A stretch of 64,000 bases of DNA from an uncultured Candidatus Poseidoniales archaeon (lineage in GTDB: Archaea > Thermoplasmatota > Poseidoniia > Poseidoniales > Thalassarchaeaceae). The notes below the pieces were generated by a model that saw only the letters and a list, made by a program, of their open reading frames with translations, was not told the origin of the DNA and searched no databases. Made by a program: the position numbers and the translations under genes. The DNA lies in contig CAYFID010000001.1 of the NCBI GenBank assembly GCA_964343205.1, positions 10,835 to 74,834 on the forward strand. Reading direction: 5' to 3'. Below are positions 17,201 through 52,873 of this stretch, piece by piece (position 1 is the first letter of the stretch; every line of letters starts with the position of its first letter).

Positions 17201-20200
17201 TCCACAAGTTCGTTAAGTTCGAATGCAGTAATCAAGAAAGCTCGCATCATCCCGAACTTTGCATTGGCCCTGTGTAGCCCGGTCGAGATGTCGTAGTAGT
17301 CCTCGAAAAGGTCTTTTGTGTATCTATATCCACCCATGTCATAGTGACTGGGATCTTCCATAATTTCGTATGATGAGGATGATCCTCTTGCCTCGTCGAA
17401 AAGTGACTTTGCAGCAGATTCGTTCGTGCTTGGTTCTCCGTAATTCTCACCATCCTTCAAAACTAGCCAGACCTCGTCAGTTTGAGGTATTCCGTTATTG
17501 TCCAGCAAGTGACCATGGAGTAGTTCGGTTGAGCCATATACCGCCTGTAGTGCCATTGTCCTGTCCATAACAAACTGTCTACAACTATCGCAATTACTAT
17601 TCGAGATGATTGCAGAGAATTCTTCAATCTGTTCTTCCGTCATTGAGGACTCCAGAACAACTCTGAAATCTTCGCTCATCTCTCCACCATTCAAGTTTCT
17701 ATCACCTAAAGCAAGCGTGGCAATGAACAAAGATAGTGTGTCCTCCTGACCTGCCGATAATAGCATAGCTCCGCTATTTGGTATGCCTGATTGGAAGTTA
17801 TCAGCAACGGTCGGATGTTGCCCCGAAGTAAGTGCTTGGAAACCATAATCCCACCAAGAGACAAATGCCGGTCTTTGGCTGAACGGAGTAGAATTATCCT
17901 GCTTCGACAGCCAGTCGTAGGCTTCATTCCATCCTTGTGTGTTGAAGCTAGGGCCGAATGTCCCCATGTACCAATGCCCAGTTTCAAACGGTTCGTACGG
18001 ATTGCTGTTCATCACAGAAAACAGGTTGAAGAAGTCCTGCCTAAGGATGTCTGGAGCGATGTCATATATACTCTGGTCAACTTCATAGGCGGACTGCTCG
18101 CCCCTCGGGATTCCAGAGTCTATTCCGTAAGTGGCATGCTGAGAGCTGATGAGGAGAAGAACCAGAATCATTGCTGGAACTCCAGGTCTTGACTTGGTAG
18201 CAGGCCAGAGAGATCTGAATCTTGTTCTCGGAGTTCCAATTCCTGAGTTCCTCCATACCTTGGAAAACGCTGAGAAGTTTGAGCTCCCCCATAGCATCGA
18301 GATGCCTATCCCGCCAGCTACTGCCATGGGTGGGGTCGCGTTGATTATGAAACGGCCAGCGGTCCATGCCATGTAGGTTGCGATAATGGTCCAAAGGCCT
18401 AGTAGAGTGAGACCGGACTTGCTCTTCCTGCTTCCCCTCCAAAGAAGAACGAAGGAGCACCCTATTGCTATCAAGGCTACAATAGGTCCGTACGAAGCGA
18501 ATAGAACACCTCTGTCGGGAGCCTGTGCCTCTCCGATGGTACCGAAGATCTTGTTCTTAGAGAAATAGAAACCTCCGGTGAAAAGAATATCCCAGCCAGC
18601 GTAGATTTCTGTAACCTGAAGTAAAAACAGTAGGGCCAGAATGGTACCAAAAAGTGCCGAACCCCCCATTACAACCAGTAGCCAGGGCTTATCTCTGAAG
18701 GAGCTAGATACCCATCCCACTGCGAATGTGAAGCCGATAATGTAGAACATTGGTTGCATTCCACTTGGCGCAAATAGAAGGTTCATTCCGGGCCAAGCAT
18801 AGAATGGGATGGGGATGATGATTGAAGAAATCATCATCTGAAGAGCCGCGGAAGTGAATTGTAAGCTGTCCTTTCTACGGAAAATGTTGACTGCCACTTG
18901 GAATGAGTATGCTAGGAATAGTATTCCAGGCCCATATACGAATCCCTTCCAACCCAGAGCCATCACTGCGAAGGCTATTCCGGACATGGTTGCGTTTGCC
19001 ATTAATGCAGGATTTCGCTGCCATGTGTCCCTCATTCCAGCCAGTATGTACAAGGGATTTGTACTGGTCTTCTCAAAGACCTCCTTGTGCTCTAGATTTT
19101 CAAGGGCCCTCATCCAGAAATAGAACGCAATTGCAAGGAACAACATCGCGAAGGAGTCGTGATCCGACATTGCGAATGTTGACCGGCTCATGTGTCCGGG
19201 CATCAGTGCTATCAGCCAAGCCGCGAAAATTCCCGAACGCTTGCTGTGAGCCCTTGTCGCGATTCCTGCGATTGGGAGTACGATCAGTGCACCGTATATT
19301 GCTGGGAGGGCGGACATTGACCACCATACTGCTTGGTCCGGTGAGATCTCTAGTAGCCAAGAAAGCGCGAGAGCGCCTAGTGCCAGAGACCACGAGAAAA
19401 GGGGTGGCCTCGGGTTAATGCCCCCTGAGGGGTAAGCCCTATCATGATCGAAAATTAAGTGGCTTCTTTCGGCGATTACGTAGTCCACGACCCGTTTCAT
19501 ATACCATGGGTCAGACCCGCCAGTCATGTCCCAAAGACCAGTTCCAGAGGCATTCATTGCTGGAATGACATTCCATGCCGTCCTGACAACGAGTGCGACA
19601 ACGAATGCAAGAGACACCATCATGATGTAGGAGTTCTCGTCCCACCAAGTCCGGAATCCGCTTCTATCCCTTCTAGGGGCAATGTCACCGAAGGCCCCTC
19701 TTGATGCGAAGAAGATTGCGAAGAAGTTCAGCCAGAAACCAAGGAAAAACCAGGTAAATGATCCAATGAAGCCTGTCTCAGAGAATAGAGAGGGAAGCTC
19801 ATTTCCAATCTCGTGGAGGTGCCCAATAGTGTATAAAATCCAGTTTATTGCCAGCATAGAGCTTAGCACATGCCACCCCTCTGCCCTGAAAAACGAAAAT
19901 GTAAGTACTACGAAAGCCGAGAAAAGTGCCCATACCACTCCGAGATGGCTTCCTTGAGCGAATTCGGCGAGGTCGCTAATCTGCCCCACCCAAATCACAG
20001 GTATTAGGAATCCTATGAATATCAATGAGGGATATGCCAAGACTTCCTTGTTTTCAGTAAATAGTGGAATCCTGGAAAACAGCGACCCAGTGCTCCTCTC
20101 TTCCAGAGTCCCCCGAAGCAAAATCATTACCACAAAACCCAAAGAAATCGAAGCAAGCCAGAATGAGAAGAATGCACTCCCTAATGAGGCCCTTTGAACG

Positions 20201-24300: not shown

Positions 24301-25755
<1,455 letters not shown>

Positions 25756-27162
25756 TTAGGAAAAAAGTCTATTCTCTACAATTCTAGAAACATTAGACTC
25801 GTGGCCAGGGAGTGTCATGACGTAGACTACGTCTTGGCTAACCTGTCTCTTTCTAAGTGCCTCCGCCATCGGAGTCATCTCCTTCAACCATCTTGTTTTC
25901 CCGTCATTTCCTATGACCTTGACGTCTACCTGTGCCATCCTCGGTTCAGAAAGAAGTAGTTTGACGCTTGGAACGTCGATTGCTACATAACCGGGATCTA
26001 ATCCAGACCTGTAAGCCATTTCGTCCTCCAATTCCCTCCTAGAATTAGGGTCACTCGCAATAGAGGCCAGTCTTTCGATCTGATCATTAGTCAAATCTTC
26101 TTTTCTCCTACTCAAACAGACCTTGAGCAACCTCCTGTACTTTAGTCTTGTAATCATGTCTTTTGCAAAGTCTCCTGCACTTTCCAGCGAGCCCCATATC
26201 TCAGCATCTACCATTCTTTGAAGATCGAGAGAGTCTGGCAAATTGTTTCCAGCCCGTTCTACTGCTCTGGATAGCATGACCTCTGTAATTCTTGTTACTT
26301 TGTGGAAGTAAACCGCACTGTACATCAGGCCTCTAGCCATTAGCATCCCCTCAAGGGCGGGCATCCCTCCCTGCTCAACAGCTACATCCCCCCCCTCACT
26401 ACTTAGGCACTCAACCAGCCTCCGATGATCTACAATACCGTGCTTTACTCCAGTGAAGTGAGAATCCCTCAGGAGGTAGTCTAGCTGGTCGCAATCTACT
26501 GGACCATGAATCAGTTTAGCCATAGTCTGGTCCTCGCCTGTGAAGTCTCCACTTCCTTCAGTCCAACTAAGCAATGACCTCTCAGTTCCTGAGGCATCAG
26601 GGCCTCTGATCAACGATGCTACGTGTTTTGGATCTAATTCGTAGTCTTCTAGAATTTCAGGAATTGATCTCCTTCTTCCGAATGAGGAGCTTTCGCCATG
26701 GCCTAGAACATCGTATTCACCCAATATTATCCCCTGAGTAACCGACATGTGGTCCATTCCACCTCTTTCCTCTAGAATATGCTCAAGAGTGTGGGAGTAT
26801 GGCCCATGACCGACATCATGAAGCATTGCTGCTACTTGTAAAGTGGACTTTTCATGTTCATCAAGTGAAAGGGAATCGGCCATTCTACCAGCCAAATGTG
26901 ATGCCCCCAATGAGTGCTCGAATCTAGTATGGTGCGCTCCTGGAAAAACTAGGTGAGCCAGGCCAAGCTGTTTGATATGGCTGAGCTTGTTTATCTCAGG
27001 GGAAGCAAGCAAATCCTCCGTGGCCCCGCCCAGTTTGAACTGGCCATGGATTGCGTCGTTGATGATTTTCACAATTTCACCTATTGCGCCCAGATACCCA
27101 TCTGACTTGAACCGCTCGTTGGTTAGAAAATATGTCCCTGCTGTATCGTATATGTATTTCAT
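25756..27162 (-). CDS. HD-domain phosphohydrolase (dGTP triphosphohydrolase-like)
   Basis: HD motif segments HTRFEHSLG and AAMLHDVGHGPYSH. The start was moved to the internal ATG at 27162 (MKYIYDTAGTYF), which avoids overlap with the divergent RHH gene. Confidence 0.7.
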   Translation of the reverse strand: MKYIYDTAGTYFLTNERFKSDGYLGAIGEIVKIINDAIHGQFKLGGATEDLLASPEINKLSHIKQLGLAHLVFPGAHHTRFEHSLGASHLAGRMADSLSLDEHEKSTLQVAAMLHDVGHGPYSHTLEHILEERGGMDHMSVTQGIILGEYDVLGHGESSSFGRRRSIPEILEDYELDPKHVASLIRGPDASGTERSLLSWTEGSGDFTGEDQTMAKLIHGPVDCDQLDYLLRDSHFTGVKHGIVDHRRLVECLSSEGGDVAVEQGGMPALEGMLMARGLMYSAVYFHKVTRITEVMLSRAVERAGNNLPDSLDLQRMVDAEIWGSLESAGDFAKDMITRLKYRRLLKVCLSRRKEDLTNDQIERLASIASDPNSRRELEDEMAYRSGLDPGYVAIDVPSVKLLLSEPRMAQVDVKVIGNDGKTRWLKEMTPMAEALRKRQVSQDVVYVMTLPGHESNVSRIVENRLFS

Positions 27163-27246
27163 TTGAAATTCAAATGCAATACAATTATATGCCAACCACT
27201 TCTCTCGCAGACTCAGGAGGAGCATGAAGTGCCCGGCAACAGTCCA

Positions 27247-27594
27247 ATGGTCTCGCTTAGAATTCCCGAAGATCACCTTCTGGAGCTAGACAGATTGGTC
27301 GGTTTTGACGGGATGAGGAATAGGTCCGATGTAATTAGAGAAGCGATTCGAAGAATGCTATCTTCACCAATACCTGGAAAGGGAGACAGGATTGAGGTTG
27401 ACCTTGGGCCTGATTTGACAATAAGGCTGAGAGACTACTGCAAGGTTGTGGGAGAATCAGCAGATGTAGTGCTTAGGCAATCTGCCAGAGAAATGATCCG
27501 CAAAGAGATGATCGAGGGTGCCACAGTTGTGGACCTACTAAGAAAGCGTATGGAAGAGTTGCGCTTTAGGCATGATGAGGATTCAAACGCTTGA
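27247..27594 (+). CDS. Ribbon-helix-helix (CopG/NikR-like) transcriptional regulator
   Basis: N-terminal MVSLRIPEDHLLELDRLVGFDGMRNRSDVIREAIRRML is a typical RHH beta-strand followed by two helices; start set at the internal Met. Confidence 0.55.
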   Translation: MVSLRIPEDHLLELDRLVGFDGMRNRSDVIREAIRRMLSSPIPGKGDRIEVDLGPDLTIRLRDYCKVVGESADVVLRQSAREMIRKEMIEGATVVDLLRKRMEELRFRHDEDSNA

Positions 27595-27637
27595 GGTGAG
27601 AGAGATTGAGCGATGTTGGGATGCACACACACAAACC

Positions 27638-27662
27638 GGGGGGGCGGCAAAGCCGCTCCCCC
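27638..27662 (+). other. Strong GC hairpin (11-bp stem with one G-U pair, AAA loop) 44 nt downstream of the RHH gene stop
   Basis: gggggggcggc-aaa-gccgctccccc was read directly from the sequence. Confidence 0.5.
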
Positions 27663-27754
27663 AACCACAATTCGACTAAGGCCAAGAGTTACGGAAACGG
27701 CCTTAGAAAAATTCGAAACAGGGCTAAAGCATTGAGCAATGCGGTGGGTTATGA

Positions 27755-27764
27755 CTCACGTGAG
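27755..27764. promoter_or_regulatory. Perfect 10-bp palindrome CTCACGTGAG about 130 nt upstream of the receiver/PPDK_N gene
   Basis: Read directly; the sequence is self-complementary. Confidence 0.3.
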
Positions 27765-27818
27765 GCCCCAAGAATGCCTAGGAAAGCGGAATAGGTTTAG
27801 TTTCTCCATACACACACC

Positions 27819-27839
27819 GTCCCGCACCCGTTGCGGGAC
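27819..27839 (+). other. Perfect 8-bp stem with a 5-nt loop hairpin (gtcccgca-cccgt-tgcgggac) 50 nt upstream of the ATG at 27890
   Basis: Read directly from the sequence. Confidence 0.4.
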
Positions 27840-27889
27840 AACCTTCCGTTCTCCTGAAATGCAATGCCGTAGACCGGGCAGACAATCAC

Positions 27890-30799
27890 ATGGACGGGAG
27901 CGTCGAAGAGTGGAACAGGTTCGAGAGGTTAACCCCTTTCCGCGTTAGGGAAGTTCTCCTAATTGCTAGTCAGTTCGACCGATATTTACTGGAAGAGTCA
28001 GGTCACCTAGCAGAGATTCTTCAAGAAGAGTATACTGTGCTAAATCTTTCACAAGCACCCAGGATTATCCACAGCCCGGATGCCAAAGATGCGATAGAGC
28101 TTGTATCGAGCAGGAAATTCGATCTCGTCATCACGATGTCCAAGGTAGGAAAGATGGACGTCTACGAACTGGCTAGAAAATTGAAGAAAATCGAAGACGG
28201 AATGCCGGTAGTAATGCTAAGTCAGAACACCAGGGAGCTGGCGACACTGAGAACGGGAGACGGAATAGACCGGATTTTCGTCTGGAGCGGTGATAGCAGA
28301 ATTTTGCTGTCAATATGTAAACTGATTGAGGATGAGAAGAATGTTGAGAATGACGTCAGAGAGGGGGACGTACAGGTGATTCTCCTGGTTGAGGACAGCA
28401 GGAGGTTCTACTCGGCATACCTTCCACTTCTGTATACCCAGTTGGTAAACCAGACTAGTAGATTGACTGGTGAAGGTGGAAACCTACATGAGAACCTACT
28501 GAGGCTAAGAGCCAGAGCGAAGATTCTGCTCGCTACAGACATGGATGAAGCAAAGGGAATCATAGACAGATACTCCAGGAACATAATTGGGGTCTTCACA
28601 GATGGCCGTTTTCCCAATCAAGGAGGGGAGAGAGAAACAGCAGGATTGGAGCTCGTAAAATATGCAGAGAGCGGACACAGGTACCTTCCAATACTTCTCC
28701 AATCAAAGAACATAGAATTGAAAGAAGATGCGGAAGCTATTGGTGTTCCATTCCTTCACAAGGAAGATCCGATGCTGTACCAGAGAATTGAGGAGTTCAT
28801 GCAAGAAGAAATGAGCTTCGGAGATTTCATATTTAAGACTCCAGAAGGGATTGAGATTGGCAGGGCATCAAACCTAGAGGGTTTGGCAGAAATGGTTAGC
28901 GAAGTCCCATTGGAGTCCCTAGAATTCCATGCAAGTAGGAATGAATTCTCACACTGGCTCAGAGGTAGGACCGAATTCTCTCTGGCATCTTCATTAAGAC
29001 CAATGACATTGGAAGATTTCGATCACTCAGATGAGGTCAGAAACCATATCTCAGAGACAATAAAGTCACACATCCAGAGTGTAAGAAAAAGGACCATCAG
29101 GGATCATGACTCTAAATCAGAAAACGGGGGTTTCCAGAGAATCGGTAGAGGCAGCCTAGGGGGGAAAGGCAGGGGTCTGGCCTTCTTCTATACTAGGATG
29201 GATCAGCTAGAGCTTGGCGTGACATACCCCGAAATCGAATTCGTAGTGCCGAACTCAGTAGTAATTGCAACTGGTGTTTTCGGGGACTTCATCGGTAGAA
29301 ATAATCTATCCAGATTTGCTTACGGCGACTACAGTGATGAAGAGATAAATGAGTCGTTCCTTGCTGGAGACTTCGGTGAAGAGGTCGAGGAAATCAGGGA
29401 GATGTTGGACAAAACCTCCTGGCCTGTGGCTGTTCGCTCTTCGAGCCTACTCGAAGACTCTAGTCACCAACCCTTCGCTGGAGTCTACGCGACATACATG
29501 CTGGCCAACGATCACTCAGATTTGGATGTTAGATTGAGGCGCCTACTACAGGCAATAAAACTAGTTTACGCTTCAATATTCCATAAGAATGCCAAGGACT
29601 ACATCACCGCAACGGCAAGCAATATCGAGGACGAGAGGATGGCTGTTGTGGTCCAGGAAGTGATAGGAAGGAAGACTTCTGGCAGGTTCTATCCGGATAT
29701 TTCGGGTGCAGCGAGGAGTCGGAACCACTACCCAGTAGACCCTCTAAAGATGGAGGATGGGCTTGCTGCAGTCTGTATTGGCCTAGGCAGACAGGTCTCT
29801 ACGGGGGGGAAATGCTTGAGATTCAGCCCGGGACAACCAAAGAGAATCCATCAGTTCTACAGCACCAATTCAATCATAGAAACGTCCCAAAGTAGATTTT
29901 TCGCGATTCCTATGTGTGAAGAATACGGTGACGTCTATCCATCTGAGGAAGAAAACCTGGTTCACTTGGGCCTTAATGATGCCGAGGAAGATGGCAGGCT
30001 CTCTTTGGTGGGTTCTACATACTTAGCCTCTGACGACAGAATTGTGGATTCGATAAAGACCAGTGGTGGATCAAGGCTGGTAACCTTCGCTCCAGTTCTA
30101 AAACGCGAGAAATTTCCACTTGCCCCAATCTTGGACCATGTTCTAAAGACTTGTGAGGAGTTCCTTGCAAGCCCTGTGGAAATGGAGTTTGCGATCAACG
30201 TTGACCGGGATAGTGGGGATAGGAAGTTCGCCATCCTACAGGTTAGGCAACTGATGGACGAGTCCGTGGACATAGACATCGACTTAGACAAGATTGATCG
30301 AAGTAAGGCTGTCTGTGTAAGCAGCAAGTCACTTGGCAATGGGGTGATCGAAGGAGTCAATGATGTCGTATATGTTCACCCCGATCGTATGGATAGGATG
30401 AGGACTGTAGAGTTGGTTCCGTTGATAGAGGAGATTGACGCGAGGCTTAGAAAGGAAGGAAGGCCATACTTGCTGATTGGCCCTGGGAGATGGGGGTCAT
30501 CGGACCCCTCCCTGGGAATTCCTGTTCAATGGAACCAAATCATGGGGGCTAAGACGATTGTCGAAGCCCCAATGTCCGACATTCACGTAGACCCCTCCCA
30601 AGGGACTCACTTCTTCCAGAACATTGTGACCTTCAACATAGGTTATCTAACCATAATTAAAGGTGACCTGGTAGACTGGAGATGGTTGGACTCTCATGAC
30701 CCCAAAGTCGACAAGAAGGGGATGAGGCATATTTCCTTGGACGGCCCTCTCAAGGTTGTTCTGGACAGCCGGGACTCGGAGGCAATCGTAGTTAGATGA
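27890..30799 (+). CDS. Multidomain protein: degenerate receiver-like domain, second receiver domain, PPDK_N-type (PEP synthase / pyruvate phosphate dikinase nucleotide-binding) domain
   Basis: The first REC-like segment DLVITMSKVGKMDVYEL..PVVMLS has Met at the phospho-acceptor position. The second, VILLVEDS...IIGVFTDGRFP, retains the Asp. PPDK_N signatures are RIGRGSLGGKGRGLAFF (about 29153) and VAVRSSSLLEDSSHQPFAGVYATY. No TSHAAI phosphohistidine motif was found. Confidence 0.6.
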   Translation: MDGSVEEWNRFERLTPFRVREVLLIASQFDRYLLEESGHLAEILQEEYTVLNLSQAPRIIHSPDAKDAIELVSSRKFDLVITMSKVGKMDVYELARKLKKIEDGMPVVMLSQNTRELATLRTGDGIDRIFVWSGDSRILLSICKLIEDEKNVENDVREGDVQVILLVEDSRRFYSAYLPLLYTQLVNQTSRLTGEGGNLHENLLRLRARAKILLATDMDEAKGIIDRYSRNIIGVFTDGRFPNQGGERETAGLELVKYAESGHRYLPILLQSKNIELKEDAEAIGVPFLHKEDPMLYQRIEEFMQEEMSFGDFIFKTPEGIEIGRASNLEGLAEMVSEVPLESLEFHASRNEFSHWLRGRTEFSLASSLRPMTLEDFDHSDEVRNHISETIKSHIQSVRKRTIRDHDSKSENGGFQRIGRGSLGGKGRGLAFFYTRMDQLELGVTYPEIEFVVPNSVVIATGVFGDFIGRNNLSRFAYGDYSDEEINESFLAGDFGEEVEEIREMLDKTSWPVAVRSSSLLEDSSHQPFAGVYATYMLANDHSDLDVRLRRLLQAIKLVYASIFHKNAKDYITATASNIEDERMAVVVQEVIGRKTSGRFYPDISGAARSRNHYPVDPLKMEDGLAAVCIGLGRQVSTGGKCLRFSPGQPKRIHQFYSTNSIIETSQSRFFAIPMCEEYGDVYPSEEENLVHLGLNDAEEDGRLSLVGSTYLASDDRIVDSIKTSGGSRLVTFAPVLKREKFPLAPILDHVLKTCEEFLASPVEMEFAINVDRDSGDRKFAILQVRQLMDESVDIDIDLDKIDRSKAVCVSSKSLGNGVIEGVNDVVYVHPDRMDRMRTVELVPLIEEIDARLRKEGRPYLLIGPGRWGSSDPSLGIPVQWNQIMGAKTIVEAPMSDIHVDPSQGTHFFQNIVTFNIGYLTIIKGDLVDWRWLDSHDPKVDKKGMRHISLDGPLKVVLDSRDSEAIVVR

Positions 30800-30839: not shown

Positions 30840-32840
30840 ATGTCGCACGAAGGGGAGGTCAACGCGGATCTTTTCTTCGCACATGATTCCCCCAGAGAAT
30901 CACAAAGAGAGATGATATCGGATGGAATTGAGGCATTGAAGTGCGGTGGTTTCCTTCTTGCAGCGGCCCCTACCGGGATTGGGAAGACGGCTGCTGCACT
31001 AGCATCATCTATAGCAGTAGCAAAATTGTATTCAACTAGTCCCGAGACACCAAAGATTCTATTCCTGACGGGCAGACAATCCCAGCACAGAATTGTCGTT
31101 GACACAATTCGGGAAATAAACAAGAGACTTCCCCCGGGATTCTCCAAGTTAAAATTGGTTGATATTATTGGTCGGAAGAGCATGTGCAAGAATGTTGATG
31201 CAGTTGGGAAATGCCAATGTGAGGAAGGAGTCACAGAATCCGAGAGAAGGTTCCTTAGATCCGACTTGGGGGCATATATTCATTCAGAACCTATGCATGT
31301 TGACCAAGTACTGAAAAGAGTGGAGAAGCAAGATGTTTGTGCATGGGCAACTGCAAGAGAAGCAGCGAGATTAACAGATGTGATTGTCTGCGACTACAAT
31401 CATGTTTTCGTAGAGGGAGTTAGGGATGCGTCTCTACCGGCTATGGGAGTAGATTTGGGTAATTCGATAATTATCGTTGACGAGGCTCACAACCTCCCAG
31501 ATAGAATCAGGGGGGGTCTAGAAAGGAGGATTACGGACCAAGTCTTTAGAAGGGCTCTAGATGATATTGAAGAATACAAAGGTCACATGCAAAAAAGAGA
31601 GGATGACCTAGATATCCCCGAGTCGAATAAGCTTAGAGAAGCAAAATCCCTAGAGAAGCAAATCGGTGCTCTTCGAGAAGATTCGGGGATAAAAAATTGG
31701 TTTGAGGAAAAGAAGTCTGAAAACGAGCGAAGCAAAGGTGACGATGTAAGAGTAACAACTCAAGAGTTCATTGATGTCGTGTCAAATGCAATTGAAGGGG
31801 TTCTAGATGAAGATGCCAATGATGGAATTTCCAGAATCAAGATGATGATCACACGTTTATTGGCCGTGATAATCGAAGAAGAGGAAGATTCTGATGATGA
31901 AGAGCAAAATGACTGCACTAGACTGGCAGAGATTCTGGAGATATGCATTAGATATCGAAACAGTCCGGCATTGGCTCTAGTTTTTGATGAAAAAATGAGT
32001 GAGCCGAGAGTGACGAGTCATCTACTGGACCCGAGCGTAGTGGGCGAGTCAATCTTTGAACAGAGTCTTGGATCGATTCTGATGTCAGGAACTCTCTTCC
32101 CGCCTGAGATGTTCTCTAATGTTCTAGGGGTTCCAAGCGTTCGAGCCAAATGTAAGGAGTACTCATCGGGTTTCCCTCTGAGCAATAGACCAGTGCTGAT
32201 TGCAAGTGATGTTACCACCAAGTATACAGAACGAGAGAAAAGTATGGAGTCGATATTTGCCCATATCAAATCTGTGATAGACAATACAAAGGGGAATGTG
32301 GCAATCTTTGCTCCAAGTTATTCGATGCTCGACAGGATTCATGACCACTTCGATGATAGTTGGATTCCGAAAACTATCCTAAAGGAGGAGCAAGGAATGA
32401 ATAAAAGGGGAGTCCAGGGTTTAGTGGAGAGGCTCCATGAGCAAAAGGACATGGGGGGGGCAGCACTCTTCGGTGTCCTAAGTGGGAAGTTATCCGAGGG
32501 GGTTGACTACTCAGACAATGTCCTCAATGCCCTGGTCTGCGTCGGACTCCCAATGCCACCTCCTAGCGCAAGGCAGGATGCTTTGTTTGAGTACTATACG
32601 AAAAAATTCAACAGGAGCAGAGCATGGAAGTATGCTAGTCTACAACCTGCAGTAAACAGCGTTTTGCAAGCCCTTGGTAGGCCAATAAGGAAGAAGGAAG
32701 ATAGGGCGATTATAATTCTCCTCGAGAAGAGGATGCTAGGGCGAAGAGAAAGCGATTGCATGCCGAAGATGCATAAGATGCAGACCTCAAACCCTTCAAG
32801 AACGGGGGAGCGAGTGAAGGCATTCTTCGAGATTTCGTGA
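30840..32840 (+). CDS. XPD/Rad3-family ATP-dependent DNA helicase (DinG-like) with an FeS-cluster domain
   Basis: Walker A AAPTGIGKTAAAL, DEAH box IIVDEAHNL, and four Cys (CKNVDAVGKCQCEEG...C...C) between motifs I and II as in XPD. Confidence 0.85.
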   Translation: MSHEGEVNADLFFAHDSPRESQREMISDGIEALKCGGFLLAAAPTGIGKTAAALASSIAVAKLYSTSPETPKILFLTGRQSQHRIVVDTIREINKRLPPGFSKLKLVDIIGRKSMCKNVDAVGKCQCEEGVTESERRFLRSDLGAYIHSEPMHVDQVLKRVEKQDVCAWATAREAARLTDVIVCDYNHVFVEGVRDASLPAMGVDLGNSIIIVDEAHNLPDRIRGGLERRITDQVFRRALDDIEEYKGHMQKREDDLDIPESNKLREAKSLEKQIGALREDSGIKNWFEEKKSENERSKGDDVRVTTQEFIDVVSNAIEGVLDEDANDGISRIKMMITRLLAVIIEEEEDSDDEEQNDCTRLAEILEICIRYRNSPALALVFDEKMSEPRVTSHLLDPSVVGESIFEQSLGSILMSGTLFPPEMFSNVLGVPSVRAKCKEYSSGFPLSNRPVLIASDVTTKYTEREKSMESIFAHIKSVIDNTKGNVAIFAPSYSMLDRIHDHFDDSWIPKTILKEEQGMNKRGVQGLVERLHEQKDMGGAALFGVLSGKLSEGVDYSDNVLNALVCVGLPMPPPSARQDALFEYYTKKFNRSRAWKYASLQPAVNSVLQALGRPIRKKEDRAIIILLEKRMLGRRESDCMPKMHKMQTSNPSRTGERVKAFFEIS

Positions 32841-32879
32841 GCAATGGGTTCATGCGAGTCGGGGAGTTGGGGTGTTCCC

Positions 32880-33335
32880 ATGGAGTGGACCAGGGTTAAC
32901 GTTCAATCGGACGACGATTCCGTTGAAGGTACCCTTGATTTTGAAGATCTGAAAATAGGGCTTGACACTAATGCTGAGTCAATGCACGAGTCATTTCTCA
33001 AGGGCTTGCCCCACCTTTCAGAAGTCCAAGAAAGACACAGTGGCGTGGTGTCAGATATAGAGTCGCGGGCACTAAGTACAACAGTCTCGTCATTGGGCGA
33101 CTTCCTCTCAGAATTCGGAGGAGAATGGAGCGAGTCAGAAATCAGGATTCCATTACAAGTGGAAATGAGGGCAGACGTTGTAGTGGATGCCAAGGAATAT
33201 CATGGGAGTCAAGTGGTTCGAATTATTTCTCCAGAGAGGTTTGGGGGCATGTTCAGGTCCTTCCATCTGCCTGAGGGCAGGAATATCCTGGGGGCGTCCT
33301 GGGAAGGGGAGATTCTCTCCATCAAGATAGGTTAA
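32880..33335 (+). CDS. Small heat-shock protein (Hsp20 / alpha-crystallin family)
   Basis: The C-terminal FRSFHLPEGRNILGASWEGEILSIKI matches the Hsp20 F.R.F.LP....I.A...dGvL.I pattern; start uncertain (32844 or 32880). Confidence 0.55.
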   Translation: MEWTRVNVQSDDDSVEGTLDFEDLKIGLDTNAESMHESFLKGLPHLSEVQERHSGVVSDIESRALSTTVSSLGDFLSEFGGEWSESEIRIPLQVEMRADVVVDAKEYHGSQVVRIISPERFGGMFRSFHLPEGRNILGASWEGEILSIKIG

Positions 33336-36300
33336 TCACTCGTCTGACTCGAGTTGCAAGGGGCCTCTAGTAGGCATTTCCTGAATTGCTTCTATCTCCT
33401 GAATTACTGAAGAGAGGGCCAGCTGTGCGTTGTCCCTGTGTGAGTCCCCAAGGACGTGACTAGAGTATCGGGCCTCTTCGAATATTCTGTCTAAGGAAAT
33501 CAGAGAAGCCTCGCTGATAGGGAGTGCTTGCCTGATTGCGGATTCGAACTCTCTGACCGTTTCGAAATTGCGGCGCAAGAAGCTCCTTCTCATCAACACC
33601 GAACAAAGATTCTGGTAGCACAGGAAAATCGCCTTCCTGTACTCATCTCCGGAGGCCAGCATCTCGGCGGTCTGACTGAATACGCTGGCAAGTTCCTTAA
33701 TAGCGGATTTCCTCCTTGTATTCACCAGCATGGCGCCGATGGACAAAGCCGCAGCAGCAGCCAGTAGAGCTCCAATTGCAACCGTAGCGGATCCGAAGAG
33801 AGATCCCGAATCTTGCTCCTCGTAATCTATCTGTACCCCTCCAGTTGGCAACACGGCTAGGCTTCCAGGGTCGATGTATTCAGAGTCGGACCCAATCATC
33901 ACGCTGAGCCTGCCCCATGAAGACAGGTCTGATAGTGGGGGCATGGGTGCTAGAGACTTGAACTCGTAATCGAACACCCCCTCTGAGCTCGTTAGCTTGG
34001 ACATTGAGAAGTGTGAGGTGCTTCCATTCAGAAGAATCGCCGTCATGGACAAGCCCTCCATGGGCTCCCCTGTGTCCTTTGCAGTTACGTTTACAGTCCC
34101 CCTAATCACCCTCTGTCCTATTGATAGTTCTAGATCCGATAGGACGAATTCAACCTCGACCAGAATCATGACATCTACGTCCTTCGATGCCCCGTTGAGG
34201 AATCTGTCCTGATCGGATTCCACCGCTATTGTAATCGTGTTTTCTCCCGGGTGCATGTATTCTTGGGCCTTTGCCCTGATTTGGAAGTTCATCGTGTTCG
34301 GGTTGTCCCATGGCCCCAAAGTAGTTGGAAGAGCTGAGTCACCCCACCACAGCGTCATAGTCAGATTTCCAAATATTGCAGAGTCGCCCCCGACTTCCCG
34401 TATCAGACCCTGAAGCATTATCGAACTCGAAGGTGAGGGATCTCCTCTTACGATCGTGTTGGTTATTGGCTGAATCTCGATTACTATGTCAGAAAGGGCA
34501 AAGACCGTGAGCACAGAGTCTGTTGGCAAGTAGAGGAACTCGCCGCCATATTGGAAGGTGACATTGTGGGACCCGCGACTGAGGGAGTACTGGACTCGTT
34601 GGGAATAAGAAAACAGTCCCCCGGCCTCAGTGATTACAGTTTCCACAATTGAGCCATCTAACAGCACCAAGACCTCCCTGCCGTCCAAGCCCTGTTCGAA
34701 TCCGGTGTCCGATTCGAACAAGCGTCCGGTGAAGTTCCACTCCCCCCCTCTGGTGGCGTACACTTCCTCGACTTGTAAAGAAATAGACGTGTGGTATGAT
34801 ACGGTGAATGATGATTCAGTGCTACCCTGTCTGTAGAAACCCTGGGCTGGAGAGACTGCAGAAACTGAGTGATTACCGATTTCCATGGACTCGGGCAAGG
34901 TCCAGTTTAATGACCAAGTTCCATTGTCTACAGAGCTGGCCATTCCCACAAGCAGCCCGTCCACGAAAACCTCGATTGTATGGCTGCCTAGCCAGCCATC
35001 CTCTAGATTGTCCTTTACCCTGCCCGAGATCGTAAGAGTATCGCCAACTGCTACTGGGTGGGGTTCTTCAATTGTAACGAAAACCGGGGAAAATACGGTA
35101 AATACTACTGAGGAGTTTGAAGGAAGAACGAATTGCTCTCCTTCGTATGACACCTCAATAAGTAGAGGGCCTAGGTGCATGTCTGGAGAGATCGGTACAA
35201 AGGCAGTGAAGGAGCCGTTACCAGCTACTGACAAGGATGTTAGTTCCTCTCCGTTAATTGTCAGCACTAGCTCCCTGTTGGGTAGGGCTCTACCGACCCC
35301 ATCTGTTAGCATACCCTCGATGAGGGCAACCTCTGATCTGTCTATCTCACCTGGAGGGGTGGAAATCACTATTTGTGAAGTCTGGGTGACATTGAATCCC
35401 ACGGAATCAGATGAGCCAATGTAGTACTCTGGGTTGATTGAGTCCCCTTGGCCCATTGGGTCGACCCATGAGAAACCCCCTAGGAACTCGACTCTAGCAG
35501 TGTGCAAACCGAATTCCATGTCCGCGGGAATCTGGAATGTTATCGACCACTGGCCAGTGGTTGCGTTGGAGACAGTCGTGTATGAAGGACCAACATCTAT
35601 ACCGTCAATATACAGGTGGATAAGCCCCCCGAGTGGGTTCCCGTCATCCTTCAGTGGCTGTCCTCTCTCGTCCATTAGCGAGCCAATGAGTGTTACTGAA
35701 TCCCCGGCAATTGACGGAGAGGACGCCTCCTTCAATGTCAAGACGGTGGGGGCCAAAACGATTACGCGAGTCCATGTCTCGTCACCAAGGAGTCCAATTG
35801 ATCCATTTATCCCAGAGAATGTGGCGTTGACCACCATTGGACCGGGATCCCGGTCATCCCTAACTACGATGGAGGCAGATGCGAGCCCATCAGAATCCGT
35901 GATGCCCCCCCATACAGTGACGTTGTCAATCTTGACGATTAGGGTAGCGGATTGGAGAGGGGTTCCTGAGTTGTCAATTATTGAGAGATTTATGTCAAAA
36001 GATTCCCCTCTTAACGTTCTGCTGTCCGAGTCTAAATCGTCGGGGCTCTCGATTGTTAAGAATGAGTATCCTCTGCTGTCGAATGTAGAAAATCCTGAGG
36101 CAGAGGTGAAGTAAGTTACCTGAGGGGTGAAGTCTACTTCGATAGAATGAGGGCCTCTGGGGAAAGAAAGTTCCAGTCTGATTTGGGCTATCCAGGTCCC
36201 ATCAGATTGGAATGAGACTTGAGGGACGGTGAATGTGTCTGTTTCGCCATCTATCGTAAATGTCAGAGTTGGGTTAAGTGCGTTTCCTGTTCTGTCCGTA

Positions 36301-39300
36301 AGCCCGCTTCCGTTGCTAGATGTGAGTGAGCCTGAGACATTGAAGAACTCGCCCGGGAGGGGGTTAGCAGTAATTTGGTCAATGGCCATGCTAGTGGATG
36401 ATCGTACTGTGATGGTGTTGAGGACCTGTACTGCTGGGTTCAGGTCTTCTGACCCGTTGAATACGAATGTGATATTAACCAAGCCAAGTGGGTGGTTATG
36501 GGGAATATCGAACTCGAAAGCGACGCTGCCGTCGGCAGCGGTTACATCGGGATCTAACCAGGTTTGGTGGAATCTGGCATGGATAGTCAGCCCCGACAAT
36601 GGTGCTTCATTATTACTGAACTCAACTAGTCGGGTCGTAATTGTGGCTGTTTCTCCTCTGTTGACTATTGTGTTGATGAATGGGTTTGAATCTACGAATT
36701 GTGAGACACCCATTACTAGGATCGAGGCGTCTCCCGTACCGGTGAGGTAGAATGGAGTCGAGTCGTTAACTACGCTTACGATTACGGTCCTGTCACCTCT
36801 TAGAACGCCATTTCCTAGGGTGTCTGTGGGGACTGTTACGTTGAAGGATCCAGTAGCATTTGTCGTGTAATTTTCAATCAACAACTCGCCGGGCTCGTCG
36901 AGGAAGAATACGTTGATTCCGACAGGGCCCTCGATCGATCTGTTCGAATCCACGGAGTCAAGAACTGTCCCTTCGATGATAAATGGCTGAAGAGCGGTGA
37001 CCTGCGAAGGTATTGAGGTGATATCTACAGAACTGTCTACTTGCACAGTAAGATTGACGATGCTCTCATTTCCAATCCACCTTCCTGCTCCGGCAGTGGT
37101 TAGGTTATCAGTGAGGTCGTCTGGGGCGTGGACCCTTACATCGTAGAAACCAGGAGGGGTGGAGGCGGGGACTACTGGATTGAAGGAAAATCGCCCTGCA
37201 GAGTCGGTGGTCCCACTCTGCAGTAGCTGCTGCAGAGGCCCCCCCCAATCGAAATATAGATCCAGCGATACGCCAGAGATGGTTTCTGTGGCGTCTTCAA
37301 TGTCAGTCACTGTGGATTCCACAATTAGCTGCTCTCCGGCAACTAGGATGATTGACTGAGGGGTTGACTCGACAACGAATTCAGTCTGTATGCCAATCTG
37401 GATAACTGACGAATCACCTGCATTGTAGTATGAGTCTCCTTGAGGAGGATTTACAGAGAAATCTAGCCTGATTTCTAGGTCATAGACACCAGAGGAAATC
37501 CCAGAGGGGATTTCGAAGGAAAGGTTGTAGGCACCGTTTGAAGTGTCTAACCATCCCGATGCAAGAGTGTATACAGTTGGCGAGGCTGGGAAGCCCCCGG
37601 GGGTATTGGGGAGTTCGGACGGAACATTAAGCAGAGCCGTAACGGAGGAGTTGTTGCCAATCACTTGGGTTATCAGAACCATGTCCATTGCAAATCCAGA
37701 AACCCAATTCGTCGACCCGCGTGCCGTCCACTCCTCACCTAACGTAGCTGAGGCGTTAGCAAGGCCTTTGACTCGCACTATCTCCGAGGTCGAGTTCGGA
37801 CTTAGCCATGTGGAGCCACCGTAACTTAGCTCCCATGCATAGTCCCCGGGGTCCATGTCCAACTCTGGAGTGAAGCTTGTAGTAATCCTCCCAGAATCGG
37901 GGTCGGTTTGGTTCCAAACAGAATCGCCAGCGAAGTCTAGGTTGAAATCACCCTCGAAGGAAGCGAATGATGACCCGGTGTGGTCGGTGAGGAAAACGTC
38001 GGTATTGTGCTCTCTTCCCCTAATGGCCGGAGGTAGTGTATAATCGAAAACCACAAAGCTGCGAATTCCGAATATGTCACTAAACTGTTCTTGGTCGTTA
38101 GCATTAAGATCATCTGCATCGAACTGGAACCGAACTTCTACGGGTCCTGCTGGTAGAGGAACATCCGAGGATCCAAATAGCCAAGAAATCGAGAATTCCC
38201 CTGGTGATGACCCCCATGAAGAACTATTCAGATACCATGAAGAAAGCTGTTCGAAGGGTCCGGAAATATCTGATCTTCTCATCTCCAGAAATAGAGTGCC
38301 ATTTAGGGGCGTTGGAGATGGGCCGCGACTTAGCACTGTACCGTTTAGGAATATGTTACTATCGATCTCTAGGATCGAGTTATTTGTGCCCTCTGCCTCA
38401 AGAACTACGGATAGATTAGGAGATAGTGTGATGTTGAACTGGAAGGGGAAGGATCCGGGCCTAGCATGGTATTCAGGGGGAGTCGCATTATTTTGGTCAC
38501 TCGAGTGCCAGCCAAGGAATGAGATAGCTGCGCCAATTAGGCCTAGTGGTTCGGACTCATCGATTGGAACAGAGAATTCGTAGAACCCTCCGCCGGATAC
38601 ATCAGAAACAAGAGTTACCTCCCCATCTACTGAAGATGAAAAATTGAGGACAACCTGAAGATTGTCTACGATTGAGGGGTCTAGATTTGGGGAGCTAGAC
38701 CATGACAACTGTCCTGAGACGGTGGTGTTTACTCCAATCCCCAGCATTGGTTCGGTGATTGGAGATGGCTCATTAATTGAAATTGATACATCGTCCGACA
38801 CATTAAGCACCCATGGCAATGAAGAAAAGGTTGAGAAATCCAAGTAGCCAGTAATTCCTTGTGTCCCGACATAGCCCTTTTCTGAGGTAAGTATTACGAG
38901 AGATCCTAGTCCGGGCTGAATTACCTGTTCTGGAAGGCCGGTAAGATTGAAGGAGCCGTTGGAATCAGTTACCGCCGTGGCCACGATGTGCTCCTGAACC
39001 GCAGCTCTCCCGGGTATCTCTTCAGATAACTCTGGATCGACTAAATACAGGGTTACGGAGATATTGTTGGCAGCAGAGAGGTTGTCCAAGAAGACTAGGG
39101 TCCCATTTATCCAAATATGGTCGGAGATGGTGGTATTCCTCTCTACTGAATCTGGCCCCCAGGAATCCAGGGTCACGGATACCTGGGAAGCTGGAGGGCA
39201 GGCTTCGAATGGGAGCCACCCCAAATCAAGTTCCCCTTGGTTCTGATTTGTCTGCAAATGTACTTCTGCCCATCTAGTGAAATCCTTTCCGTAGACCTGG

Positions 39301-46725: not shown

Positions 46726-46802
46726 TTTACCGATTGGTCGGGTTGGTCGATGGGACCAACACGAGAAAACGGTTAATGTCGAGCCTTCACCCCAGTGTTT
46801 TG

Positions 46803-47870: not shown

Positions 47871-47892
47871 GCGGGGTTGAGGTGTAGGGGTT

Positions 47893-49128: not shown

Positions 49129-49130
49129 AT

Positions 49131-50141: not shown

Positions 50142-50142
50142 G

Positions 50143-51417: not shown

Positions 51418-51427
51418 GGGACCTGAT

Positions 51428-52864: not shown

Positions 52865-52873
52865 GGTGGTTGG

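What the first reader, a model, noticed from the sequence alone, without database searches (positions are those of the whole stretch)
27890..30799. Tandem receiver domains (the first lacking the phospho-acceptor Asp) fused to a PPDK_N nucleotide-binding domain without the phosphohistidine/PEP domains
PPDK_N (the ATP-grasp-like GGKG...VRSS..ED..FAG domain of PEP synthase / pyruvate phosphate dikinase, also used by rifampicin phosphotransferase-type kinases) normally works with a swivelling phospho-His domain. Here it is preceded by two receiver-like domains, and no TSHAAI His motif is detectable in the C-terminal 200 aa. That architecture suggests a response-regulator-controlled ATP-dependent kinase or phosphotransferase acting on an unknown substrate. 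An RHH regulator gene and a structured spacer lie immediately upstream.
Basis: partly seen in the sequence, partly recalled or inferred. Interest (0 to 1): 0.6.

Follow-up and report, generated by a model that had tools for sequence, protein, structure and literature searches.

The report
Receiver-gated ATP-grasp enzyme linked to glutamate dehydrogenase
This archaeal gene encodes a signal-receiver protein fused to the ATP-binding half of a PEP-synthase-type enzyme and to a new, unannotated end domain; its relatives in many bacterial phyla sit next to glutamate dehydrogenase genes, which suggests an undescribed switch for that central nitrogen enzyme.

Summary
Window 27890-30799 (+) is one 969-aa ORF with five parts: an Asp-less pseudo-receiver, a second receiver, a DUF5752-like helical module, a PPDK_N ATP-grasp, and a 174-aa C-terminal domain. 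Pfam misses the second receiver, but it keeps the full active-site quintet (E168/D169, D238, S272, K291). The ATP-grasp keeps its catalytic residues. The C-terminal domain models confidently yet matches nothing: no PEP-utilizers swivel or TIM-barrel domain was found in four independent tests. It carries near-invariant GxGRWG[ST]xD and SxG[TS]HFF motifs.

REC-PPDK_N is already catalogued as an architecture (Maule 2015; Galperin 2018), but no function has been reported. New here: NADP-glutamate dehydrogenase lies within 8 kb in 60 of 84 homologous loci, and usually directly adjacent. This holds across many bacterial phyla, including cultured Parabacteroides and Phocaeicola. REC-less paralogs form GDH→PPDK_N→PPDK_N-nucleotidyltransferase(→metallophosphoesterase) operons. 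No conserved histidine kinase partner was found.

In the window, GDH lies 2.2 kb upstream on the opposite strand. Other MGII archaeal clades lack this linkage.

Best reading: a receiver-gated, ATP-dependent regulator of GDH, probably a modifying enzyme. The chemistry and the target are inferred, not shown.

The parts
27890..30799 (+). Whole gene: 969-aa pseudo-REC / REC / DUF5752-like / PPDK_N / novel C-terminal domain protein
   Evidence: ORF list. A 100%-identical protein is in public MGII archaeal assemblies. Full-length homologs at 31-89% identity.
27941..28363 (+). Receiver 1 (residues ~18-158): Asp-less pseudo-receiver
   Evidence: Response_reg at 26.7-28.7 bits, below the 30.2 gathering score. 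(beta-alpha)5 fold in the AF2 model. M83 sits at the acceptor position; there is no DD pair and no Lys.
28367..28807 (+). Receiver 2 (residues ~160-306): cryptic receiver with an intact phospho-acceptor site and an extra helix inserted after alpha1
   Evidence: No Pfam hit. AF2 fold and Foldseek matches to PleD tandem receivers. E168/D169, D238, S272 and K291 are conserved in 51-61 of 61 sequences.
28817..29134 (+). DUF5752-like helical module (residues ~310-415) with near-invariant G311, F313, F315, H347 and invariant W356
   Evidence: PF19027 at 26.8 bits (gathering score 23) when the segment is scanned alone, 19.3 bits in the whole protein. Weak profile match to OrfY (PDB 4cso), E=0.008.
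29153..30262 (+). PPDK_N ATP-grasp nucleotide-binding domain (residues 422-791)
   Evidence: PF01326, E=2.7e-32. hhalign to E. coli PpsA N-terminus, probability 96.5%. Foldseek to the rifampin phosphotransferase ATP domain: 5hv1 1e-10, 5hv6_A TM 0.61. Catalytic residues invariant.
30275..30796 (+). Novel C-terminal alpha/beta domain (residues 796-969) with motifs G864-x-G-R-W-G-[ST]-x-D872, E892 and S903-x-G-[TS]-H907-F-F-[QH]-N
   Evidence: AF2 pLDDT 94.8, pTM 0.91. No Pfam, PDB-sequence, Foldseek-PDB or PpsA match. Motif conservation in the REC family and in REC-less and NTase-fused paralogs.
24301..25656 (-). NADP-specific glutamate dehydrogenase (GdhA type), the conserved genomic partner of the family; here 2.2 kb upstream on the opposite strand
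   Evidence: NCBIfam PRK09414 at 736 bits against a cut-off of 536. ELFV Pfam domains. Synteny statistics.
25756..27276 (-). HD + HD_assoc_2 phosphohydrolase gene lying between GDH and the target (true start probably 27162). Conserved in this position only in the window's own archaeal clade; whether it belongs to the system is unknown.
   Evidence: Pfam. Four-locus neighbour cluster: L005, L006, L007 and the window.
27247..27594 (+). Ribbon-helix-helix (CdrS/aCcr1-like) small ORF immediately upstream (listed ORF starts at TTG 27163; ATG 27247 is more likely). Lineage-specific neighbour.
   Evidence: RHH_1 at 22.3 bits against a gathering score of 20.5. CdrS and aCcr1 NCBIfam matches at E~1e-6, below their cut-offs. 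Its 3' end aligns in L005 and L006.
27595..27889 (+). Structured 295-nt spacer / probable 5' leader with two conserved GC-rich hairpins (27638-27662 and 27819-27839)
   Evidence: MFE -106.8 kcal/mol, z=-4.28, 0 of 200 shuffles fold as well. The hairpins are conserved with a few compensatory changes in L005-L007. No Rfam match.

Best explanation
The gene encodes an orphan, enzyme-type response regulator of a widespread but uncharacterised family. Two receiver-fold domains make up the input. The first is a dead adaptor. The second has a functional Asp238 pocket. A helical DUF5752-like module links them to a catalytic core. The core is a PPDK-type ATP-grasp plus a family-specific C-terminal domain that stands where dikinases carry their swivelling phospho-His domain.

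Proposed mechanism:
1. Phosphorylation of Asp238 rearranges the REC1/REC2/linker unit. The donor would be an unlinked kinase or a small phospho-donor.
2. This releases or activates the ATP-grasp/C-terminal core.
3. The core uses ATP to transfer a phosphoryl (or pyrophosphoryl/nucleotidyl) group. The near-invariant R867/S870/D872 loop and the [TS]906-H907 helix cap form the likely acceptor or transfer site.
4. The target is glutamate dehydrogenase, or at least the GDH reaction node. The protein would then set GDH activity according to a nitrogen or carbon signal, much as AceK, PDRP/PSRP or GlnE control their enzymes.

Shown: the domain anatomy, the residue conservation, the absence of a canonical His/PEP domain, and the GDH synteny.
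Inferred: catalysis, gating by Asp238, GDH as the direct target, and any role for His907.
For: Anatomy and conservation.

The family is large. There are 1026 50%-identity cluster representatives at E<=1e-30 and at least 598 GTDB species genomes.

GDH synteny in the REC-type family:
- Unbiased clustering of neighbouring ORFs gave one dominant family, a ~450-aa GDH, in 52 of 82 loci. It sits directly upstream on the same strand in 26.
- tblastn finds a GDH within 8 kb in 60 of 84 loci, about 45 of them within 500 bp. My rough estimate for a single-copy gene falling there by chance is under 1% per locus (16 kb out of a genome of a few Mb).
- The linkage recurs in Acidobacteriota, Gemmatimonadota, Ignavibacteriales, Bacteroidota, Fibrobacteraceae, Eisenbacteria, Zixiibacteriota, Planctomycetota, Bdellovibrionota, Kofleriaceae, Thermoleophilia and others.
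- Tandem GDH-regulator-GDH-regulator arrays occur in L028, L042 and L049, with related layouts in L031 and L054.

REC-less paralogs: those with the same core sit in a GDH -> PPDK_N -> PPDK_N+NTP_transf_2 operon in 6 of 6 contexts examined. A conserved metallophosphoesterase is often next to it. Pairing is subtype-specific: the REC type goes with GdhA-type GDH, and the REC-less type with the 428-aa GDH type.

Cultured Parabacteroides distasonis and Phocaeicola massiliensis have gdhA divergently adjacent to the homolog.

In the window, GDH is two genes away, as in its closest relatives L005-L007.
Against: There is no biochemical evidence at all; synteny cannot tell 'modifies GDH' from 'works in the same pathway'.

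In the window GDH is 2.2 kb away on the opposite strand, with an HD gene and an RHH ORF in between. Four other MGII archaeal clades (P0083, P0105, P0109, P0117) have no GDH within 6-8 kb. The archaeal case therefore rests on homology at 38-45% identity to the bacterial loci.

24 of 84 loci show no GDH nearby, though several of these have truncated flanks.

Every characterised PPDK_N enzyme uses a PEP-utilizers phospho-His domain, which is absent here, so the chemistry is unprecedented or different.

No phospho-donor for Asp238 was identified.
Confidence: 0.45

Rival explanations
1. Small-molecule kinase/dikinase. The ATP-grasp/C-terminal core phosphorylates a metabolite of the glutamate / 2-oxoglutarate / ammonium node, or makes a signalling compound from it. 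GDH is a pathway neighbour, not a protein substrate. The receivers simply tune flux.
For: All characterised PPDK_N enzymes other than PPDK and PEPS act on small molecules or glucans: rifampin phosphotransferase (best structural match), and PigC/RedH (best NCBIfam matches). The C-terminal domain has a compact alpha/beta fold with a Gly-rich loop, compatible with a ligand pocket. Operons with extra enzymes (NTase, metallophosphoesterase) resemble a pathway.
Against: The GDH partner is the ordinary housekeeping NADP-GDH. One-to-one tandem pairing of GDH paralogs with regulator paralogs and subtype-specific pairing are more typical of a protein-specific regulator. There is no conserved transporter or further biosynthetic gene. 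A two-receiver input is unusual for a pathway enzyme.
Confidence: 0.2
2. Self-contained non-canonical phosphorelay. The ATP-grasp phosphorylates His907 of the C-terminal domain, which passes the phosphoryl group to Asp238 of the second receiver. The protein is then its own 'kinase' and signals onward, to GDH or elsewhere, by protein-protein contact.
For: No partner histidine kinase is conserved nearby. [TS]-His907 is near-invariant and caps a helix, as phospho-His residues often do. The receiver quintet is intact. Some database records name family members 'histidine kinase', though without evidence.
Against: REC-less paralogs keep the same His motif, so the His has a role independent of any receiver. 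No homology to any known phospho-His domain was detected. Orphan response regulators with distant kinases are common (general knowledge).
Confidence: 0.1
3. Non-catalytic nucleotide sensor or scaffold. The ATP-grasp only binds ATP/AMP (energy charge), and the protein regulates GDH allosterically by binding.
For: The dikinase His domain is lost. The synteny fits any kind of GDH regulator.
Against: Residues needed for catalysis, not just binding, are invariant across sequences only 31-89% identical to the window protein: the Mg ligands E764/E766 and Q784, plus K426 and R516. Pseudo-enzymes usually lose some of these.
Confidence: 0.08
4. It is simply a divergent PEP synthase or pyruvate phosphate dikinase with receiver domains.
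For: PPDK_N hit. Weak NCBIfam matches to PEP synthase models over residues ~480-600.
Against: NCBIfam scores are 16-43 bits against cut-offs of 598-1063. There is no PEP-utilizers or PEP-utilizers_C domain and no TSH motif. The protein ends 178 residues after the ATP-grasp.
Confidence: 0.02

Closest known systems
REC-PPDK_N response regulators as catalogued by Maule et al. 2015 (PMC4395418) and Galperin et al. 2018 (PMC5847659)
   Same: Same architecture and evidently the same family. A Pfam-detectable receiver lacking the Asp is followed by PPDK_N. [quoted passage not shown]
   Different: Those papers are censuses only, and the text and supplement passages I searched give no function.
Rifampin phosphotransferase (RPH; PDB 5hv1/5hv6) and PEP synthase / PPDK
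   Same: Homologous ATP-grasp nucleotide-binding domain with the same GGKG, RSS..ED and Glu/Gln Mg-ligand motifs.
   Different: RPH, PEPS and PPDK pass the phosphate through a PEP-utilizers swivel His domain and have a dedicated substrate domain. Here both are absent and replaced by an unrelated 174-aa domain, and receiver domains are added.
PleD-type tandem receivers (REC-REC-output)
   Same: Two consecutive receiver folds, one of them degenerate, ahead of an enzymatic output. PleD is the best structural match for the N-terminal half.
   Different: In PleD the first receiver carries the Asp and the second is the adaptor; here the order is reversed. The output is an ATP-grasp, not GGDEF.
Enzyme-modifying metabolic regulators: AceK (isocitrate dehydrogenase kinase/phosphatase), PDRP/PSRP (PPDK/PEPS regulatory proteins), GlnE (glutamine synthetase adenylyltransferase)
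   Same: Functional analogy only: a dedicated ATP-using protein, often encoded next to its target, that switches a central metabolic enzyme. The NTase-fused paralog and the nearby metallophosphoesterase recall writer/eraser pairs.
   Different: No sequence or fold relationship was detected. The analogy rests on synteny and is untested.
Phenylphosphate synthase / acetovanillone kinase type split dikinases
   Same: These show that a PPDK_N ATP-binding module can work with a phospho-His module carried on another polypeptide (general knowledge; the paper surfaced).
   Different: No gene with a PEP-utilizers domain is conserved near this family.

Membership tests
Response regulator receiver (REC, PF00072) | Pfam model at or above the gathering score (30.2 bits) | tested here: not met
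   REC1 scores 26.7-28.7 bits; REC2 has no hit.
Response regulator receiver (REC, PF00072) | (beta-alpha)5 CheY-like fold | tested here: met
   Both units in the AF2 model. Foldseek matches PleD at 1.4e-8 and ArlR/PmrA receivers at TM 0.7-0.78.
Response regulator receiver (REC, PF00072) | Active-site quintet: acidic pair, acceptor Asp, Thr/Ser, Lys | tested here: met
   Met for REC2 only: E168/D169, D238, S272, K291 in 51-61 of 61 sequences. REC1 has S27/x28, M83 and W132, so it is a pseudo-receiver.
Response regulator receiver (REC, PF00072) | Cognate histidine kinase or demonstrated phosphorylation | tested here: not met
   No kinase family recurs among neighbours of 82 loci, and no kinase family appears among the 25 families listed of 64 for the window's ORFs (the list is truncated). 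Phosphorylation itself cannot be tested here.
PPDK_N ATP-grasp (PF01326) | Pfam model above gathering score; conserved ATP and Mg residues | tested here: met
   112.8 bits against 27. G424, K426, R516, S517, S518 and Q784 are 61/61; G425, E522, D523, Q589 and E766 are 60/61. hhalign to PpsA gives 96.5%.
PEP synthase / PPDK / PEP-utilising dikinases | PEP-utilizers swivelling phospho-His domain (PF00391; G-G-x-T-S-H) | tested here: not met
   No hit. hhalign of the C-terminal profile against E. coli PpsA gives probability 0.06%.
PEP synthase / PPDK / PEP-utilising dikinases | PEP/pyruvate-binding TIM barrel (PF02896) | tested here: not met
   No hit. Only 178 residues follow the ATP-grasp.
PEP synthase / PPDK / PEP-utilising dikinases | NCBIfam equivalog score at or above cut-off | tested here: not met
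   16-43 bits against cut-offs of 598-1063.
Rifampin phosphotransferase (NF041857) | Equivalog score; rifampin-binding domain; C-terminal His domain | tested here: not met
   29 bits against a cut-off of 999. The structural match to RPH is partial: 454 aligned columns, TM 0.27 on the 847-residue target.
DUF5752 (PF19027) | Pfam model above gathering score (23 bits) | tested here: inconclusive
   19.3 bits in the full protein and 26.8 bits for the isolated segment, covering only profile positions 19-109 of 208.
GDH-associated PPDK_N core family (defined here) | PPDK_N followed by a domain with GxGRWG[ST] and SxG[ST]HFF motifs | tested here: met
   Both motifs are present at 864-872 and 903-911. 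The same motifs occur in REC-less and NTase-fused paralogs.
GDH-associated PPDK_N core family (defined here) | A glutamate dehydrogenase gene adjacent | tested here: inconclusive
   The window GDH is 2.2 kb upstream on the opposite strand, two ORFs away. The same holds in L005-L007. It is absent within 6-8 kb in four other archaeal clades and adjacent in most bacterial loci.
Anti-phage defence systems (PADLOC) | Match to any defence-system model | tested here: not met
   No hit for the target.

The most novel reading that the evidence does not exclude
The family is the 'writer' of a previously unrecognised post-translational control system for glutamate dehydrogenase that spans many phyla. A PPDK-type ATP-grasp has swapped the classical swivel domain for a new phospho-carrier domain (GRWG / [ST]-His-Phe-Phe) and covalently modifies its cognate GDH. 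One branch, which includes this archaeal gene, takes its orders from two-component signalling through a cryptic receiver. Another branch works with a nucleotidyltransferase-fused paralog and a metallophosphoesterase 'eraser'.
Probability: 0.3. Interest if true: 0.85.

Novelty: new variant of a known kind. Interest (0 to 1): 0.65.

Why it matters
Glutamate dehydrogenase sits at the junction of carbon and nitrogen metabolism. In marine group II archaea and gut Bacteroidales it is central to living on peptides and ammonium. Dedicated covalent switches are textbook cases for isocitrate dehydrogenase (AceK), glutamine synthetase (GlnE) and PPDK/PEPS (PDRP/PSRP). My ten searches of the paper library found no equivalent for prokaryotic GDH.

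A receiver-gated ATP-grasp encoded next to gdhA in hundreds of species would be a concrete, testable candidate. It would also show a PPDK-type nucleotide domain working without the classical phospho-His swivel domain, and it would give a function to a large group of proteins annotated only as 'PEP/pyruvate-binding domain-containing protein'.

From memory only, and not verified here: reversible in-vivo inactivation of GDH was reported for Bacteroides fragilis in the 1980s without a mechanism. This gene pair would be an obvious place to look.

Tried and rejected
1. C-terminal domain as a divergent swivel phospho-His domain. The motif order (GNG..., GRWGSSD, SQGTH-helix) looked similar by eye to GxGASPG / ETSPED / GGxTSH. 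It was not supported by Pfam on 40 members, a PDB profile search, Foldseek against PDB or hhalign against PpsA. I keep it only as a low-probability idea of functional analogy.

2. Conserved partner histidine kinase. None appeared among clustered neighbours; only a 5-locus LuxR-type regulator cluster did.

3. Defence-system reading. No PADLOC hit for the target. The downstream helicase's 'typeIV_DinG' hit is generic XPD/Rad3 homology.

4. Known RNA in the spacer. No Rfam match.

5. A PEP-utilizers gene elsewhere in the fetched loci. The motif scan found none.

6. N-terminal extensions of longer family members as functional clues. Pfam found nothing informative.

7. Literature on GDH regulation by such a protein. 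Six searches found nothing relevant, and 'DUF5752' occurs in no paper.

9. My first neighbour-calling script missed targets in high-GC loci. It was replaced by motif-anchored calling and checked by tblastn.


Full report
WHAT IS THERE. Window 27890-30799 (+) is a single 969-aa ORF with an ATG start. An identical protein is present in public marine assemblies. Its nearest relatives (66-89% identity) come from Candidatus Thalassarchaeaceae and other marine group II (Thermoplasmatota) archaea. The rest of the window fits an archaeal genome: CDP-archaeol synthase, eRF1, and very large surface proteins.

DOMAIN ANATOMY. Pfam finds PPDK_N at residues 422-791 (E=2.7e-32, 112.8 bits). It finds a sub-threshold Response_reg at 50-115 (26.7 bits against a 30.2 gathering score). 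It finds a weak DUF5752 at 325-400, which passes its threshold when the segment is scanned alone.

An AlphaFold2 model built on a 61-sequence alignment is confident (pLDDT 86.6, pTM 0.77). It shows two consecutive (beta-alpha)5 units at 21-159 and 163-306, a helical module, the ATP-grasp, and a C-terminal alpha/beta domain.

Foldseek against the PDB returns the rifampin phosphotransferase ATP-binding domain as best hit (5hv1 at 1e-10; 5hv6_A at TM 0.61). Next come the tandem-receiver protein PleD (1.4e-8) and single receivers at TM 0.7-0.78. hhalign aligns residues ~423-641 with the N-terminal ATP-binding region of E. coli PpsA at 96.5% probability.

THE TWO RECEIVERS. Column counts over 61 family members, which are 31-89% identical to the window protein, show the following.
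- The first unit has no acidic pair, Met at the acceptor position (M83, 40 of 61) and Trp where the Lys should be.
- Pfam cannot see the second unit. It carries a long alpha1 plus an extra helix. Even so, it keeps the complete quintet: E/D168 61/61, D169 51/61, D238 53/61, S272 56/61, K291 57/61.

The protein is therefore best described as pseudo-REC followed by REC, the reverse order of PleD.

THE MISSING HIS DOMAIN AND WHAT REPLACES IT. No PEP-utilizers or PEP-utilizers_C domain is detectable by any of these tests:
- Pfam on the whole protein, on the isolated C-terminus at E<=10, or on 40 family C-termini;
- a profile search of all PDB sequences;
- Foldseek of a separate, very confident model of residues 796-969 (pLDDT 94.8, pTM 0.91; no hit at E<=0.001);
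- hhalign of the C-terminal profile against PpsA (0.06% probability).

NCBIfam PEP-synthase and rifampin-phosphotransferase equivalogs score 16-43 bits against cut-offs of about 600-1060. The protein is therefore not a divergent PEP synthase.

The C-terminal 174 residues are nonetheless among the most conserved in the protein. G864-x-G-R-W-G-[ST]-x-D872, E892 and S903-x-G-[TS]-H907-F-F-[QH]-N are near-invariant. His907 caps a helix.

By eye, the order of elements recalls a swivel domain. Since every homology test failed, I treat a phospho-carrier role for His907 as speculation. The ATP-grasp keeps all residues expected for catalysis: GGK426, R516-S-S, E522-D523, Q589, E764/E766, Q784/R786.

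HOW COMMON, AND WHAT IS ALREADY KNOWN. The full-length architecture is widespread.
- 7782 proteins at E<=1e-3 among the 8000 scored.
- 1026 50%-identity cluster representatives at E<=1e-30.

Databases call the members 'PEP/pyruvate-binding domain-containing protein' or, without evidence, 'histidine kinase'.

The architecture has been catalogued. Maule et al. 2015 list Response_reg~PPDK_N with 18 of 18 receivers Asp-less, in Bacteroidetes, Acidobacteria and Spirochaetes (PMC4395418 supplement). Galperin et al. [quoted passage not shown] In the passages I searched, neither assigns a function or mentions the second receiver or the C-terminal domain.

GENOMIC CONTEXT: THE MAIN NEW RESULT. I called ORFs around 82 loci and clustered the neighbours without prior assumptions. 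One family dominates: a ~450-aa glutamate dehydrogenase, present within four ORFs in 52 loci and directly upstream on the same strand in 26. The next cluster is a paralog of the target itself (9 loci). No histidine kinase cluster appears.

tblastn with the window's GDH confirms the result. A GDH lies within 8 kb in 60 of 84 loci and within about 500 bp in roughly 45. Thirty are upstream on the same strand. Several of the 24 negatives are truncated contigs. For a single-copy gene, I estimate the chance expectation at well under 1% per locus.

Further patterns:
- Some genomes carry tandem arrays, GDH-regulator-GDH-regulator (L028, L042, L049; related layouts in L031 and L054).
- The same loci revealed REC-less paralogs of about 580 aa (PPDK_N plus the same C-terminal domain) next to a different, 428-aa GDH type.
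- Following that family up, all six contexts examined show a same-strand run: GDH -> PPDK_N (578-589 aa) -> PPDK_N of 1044-1063 aa. These come from Elusimicrobia, Planctomycetota, Vicinamibacterales and unclassified bacteria. The long paralog carries NTP_transf_2 in five of the six.
- A conserved ~287-aa metallophosphoesterase follows in at least four of the six, and also occurs near five REC-type loci.
- The GRWG and [ST]HFF motifs are kept in all three subfamilies.
- Cultured Bacteroidales carry full-length homologs (35-36% identity, 99% coverage). In Parabacteroides distasonis the gene is divergently adjacent (196 bp) to an annotated gdhA, with a second NADP-GDH 3.5 kb away. Phocaeicola massiliensis has the same layout. 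One Prevotella has no GDH within 6 kb.

THE WINDOW ITSELF. The window's GDH (24301-25656, minus strand) is a bona fide NADP-GDH: PRK09414 at 736 bits against a cut-off of 536. It lies 2.2 kb upstream of the target on the opposite strand. An HD/HD_assoc_2 gene and a small RHH ORF lie between them.

The closest relatives L005-L007 share this layout. Four more distant MGII clades (45-53% identity) have no GDH within 6-8 kb. The link to GDH is therefore strong for the family and only suggestive for this particular gene.

INTERPRETATION. The most economical reading is a receiver-gated, ATP-using regulator of GDH. Asp238 phosphorylation would control the ATP-grasp/C-terminal core through the dead first receiver and the helical linker. 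The phosphate source is unknown and may be an unlinked kinase or a small phospho-donor. The core would then modify, or otherwise act on, its cognate GDH.

Three observations favour a protein-specific regulator over a pathway enzyme: one-to-one pairing in tandem arrays, subtype-specific pairing, and the recurrence of nucleotidyltransferase and phosphoesterase partners in the REC-less branch. None of them is proof.

I give this reading 0.45. The rivals are a small-molecule kinase at the GDH node (0.2), a self-contained ATP-grasp -> His907 -> Asp238 relay (0.1), a non-catalytic nucleotide sensor (0.08), and a divergent PEP synthase (0.02, effectively refuted).

THE UPSTREAM ELEMENTS. The RHH ORF most likely starts at ATG 27247. 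It passes the RHH_1 threshold and resembles the archaeal CdrS/aCcr1 regulators below their cut-offs. It is conserved only in the nearest relatives.

The 295-nt spacer is unusually structured (z=-4.28). It contains two GC-rich hairpins (27638-27662 and 27819-27839). Both are conserved, with a few compensatory changes, in the three related archaeal loci. Neither matches an Rfam family. With four sequences this is weak evidence. They may be a terminator for the RHH gene and a leader element for the target.

VERDICT. The architecture itself is already catalogued, so this is not a new kind of protein. It is, however, an uncharacterised variant of the PPDK_N enzymes. It has a new C-terminal domain in place of the phospho-His module and a hidden functional receiver. 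Its genomic association with glutamate dehydrogenase is strong, and my searches of the paper library found no description of it. That association makes a specific hypothesis directly testable in cultured Bacteroidales.

Noticed in passing
window 27595-27889 (hairpins 27638-27662 and 27819-27839): The spacer between the RHH ORF and the target is strongly structured (z=-4.28). It has two GC-rich hairpins conserved, with a few compensatory changes, in three related MGII loci. There is no Rfam match. They could be a terminator plus a leader element, or a small RNA.
   Followed up: partly
window 27163-27594 (+), probable start 27247: Small ribbon-helix-helix ORF resembling the archaeal cell-cycle regulators CdrS/aCcr1 (E~1e-6, below their cut-offs). 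It has a ~75-aa C-terminal extension and is divergent from the HD gene.
   Followed up: partly
window 25756-27276 (-), probable start 27162: HD + HD_assoc_2 phosphohydrolase gene lies between GDH and the target in the window and in L005-L007. It could be an unrelated dNTPase-like housekeeping gene, or a candidate 'eraser' for this clade.
   Followed up: no
L087-L092 (locus coordinates ~2400-9000 in each): Conserved bacterial operon: GDH (428-437 aa) -> PPDK_N protein (~580 aa) -> PPDK_N protein of 1044-1063 aa, with a nucleotidyltransferase domain in five of the six. A ~287-aa metallophosphoesterase often follows. All PPDK_N members carry the same GRWG / [ST]HFF C-terminal domain as the window protein.
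   Followed up: partly
L028 6493-15686; L042 6698-17270; L049 1660-12283 (related layouts in L031 8001-18767 and L054 3811-15656): Tandem arrays of alternating GDH and REC-PPDK_N genes, with a second, ~30%-identical GDH-like gene in each locus. This suggests one regulator per GDH paralog.
   Followed up: partly
L096 9000-13727 (Parabacteroides distasonis NZ_OY725790.1): Downstream of the homolog there is a minus-strand run: second NADP-GDH -> 'RapZ'-annotated P-loop protein -> nucleotidyltransferase family protein -> endonuclease/exonuclease/phosphatase family protein. This is another GDH gene followed by nucleotide-handling enzymes. It may instead be an unrelated sugar-recycling cluster.
   Followed up: no
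window 30840-32840 (+) and 32844-33335 (+): An XPD/Rad3-type helicase (TIGR00604, E=3e-57) starts 40 nt after the target's stop and is conserved at that position in L005 and L007. It is followed by a 163-aa ORF with no Pfam match that is also conserved there. The PADLOC 'typeIV_DinG' hit reflects generic helicase homology.
   Followed up: partly
window 11212-20688 (-) and 33336-42311 (-): Two giant ORFs (3158 and 2991 aa). The 2991-aa one has many Asp-rich calcium-binding-like repeats and a C-terminal membrane anchor, typical of MGII surface proteins.
   Followed up: no
P0263 (1639 aa), P0169 (1557 aa), P0210 (1524 aa): Family variants: one has two PPDK_N cores in a single polypeptide, and two have ~560-590-aa N-terminal extensions with no Pfam match.
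   Followed up: partly
window ~46700-52900 (+): Genes for a 2-oxoacid dehydrogenase complex (E1, E2, E3) together with a lipoate-protein ligase were found among the window's ORFs. They belong to the same 2-oxoacid/amino-acid catabolic theme as GDH but are 16 kb from the target.
   Followed up: no
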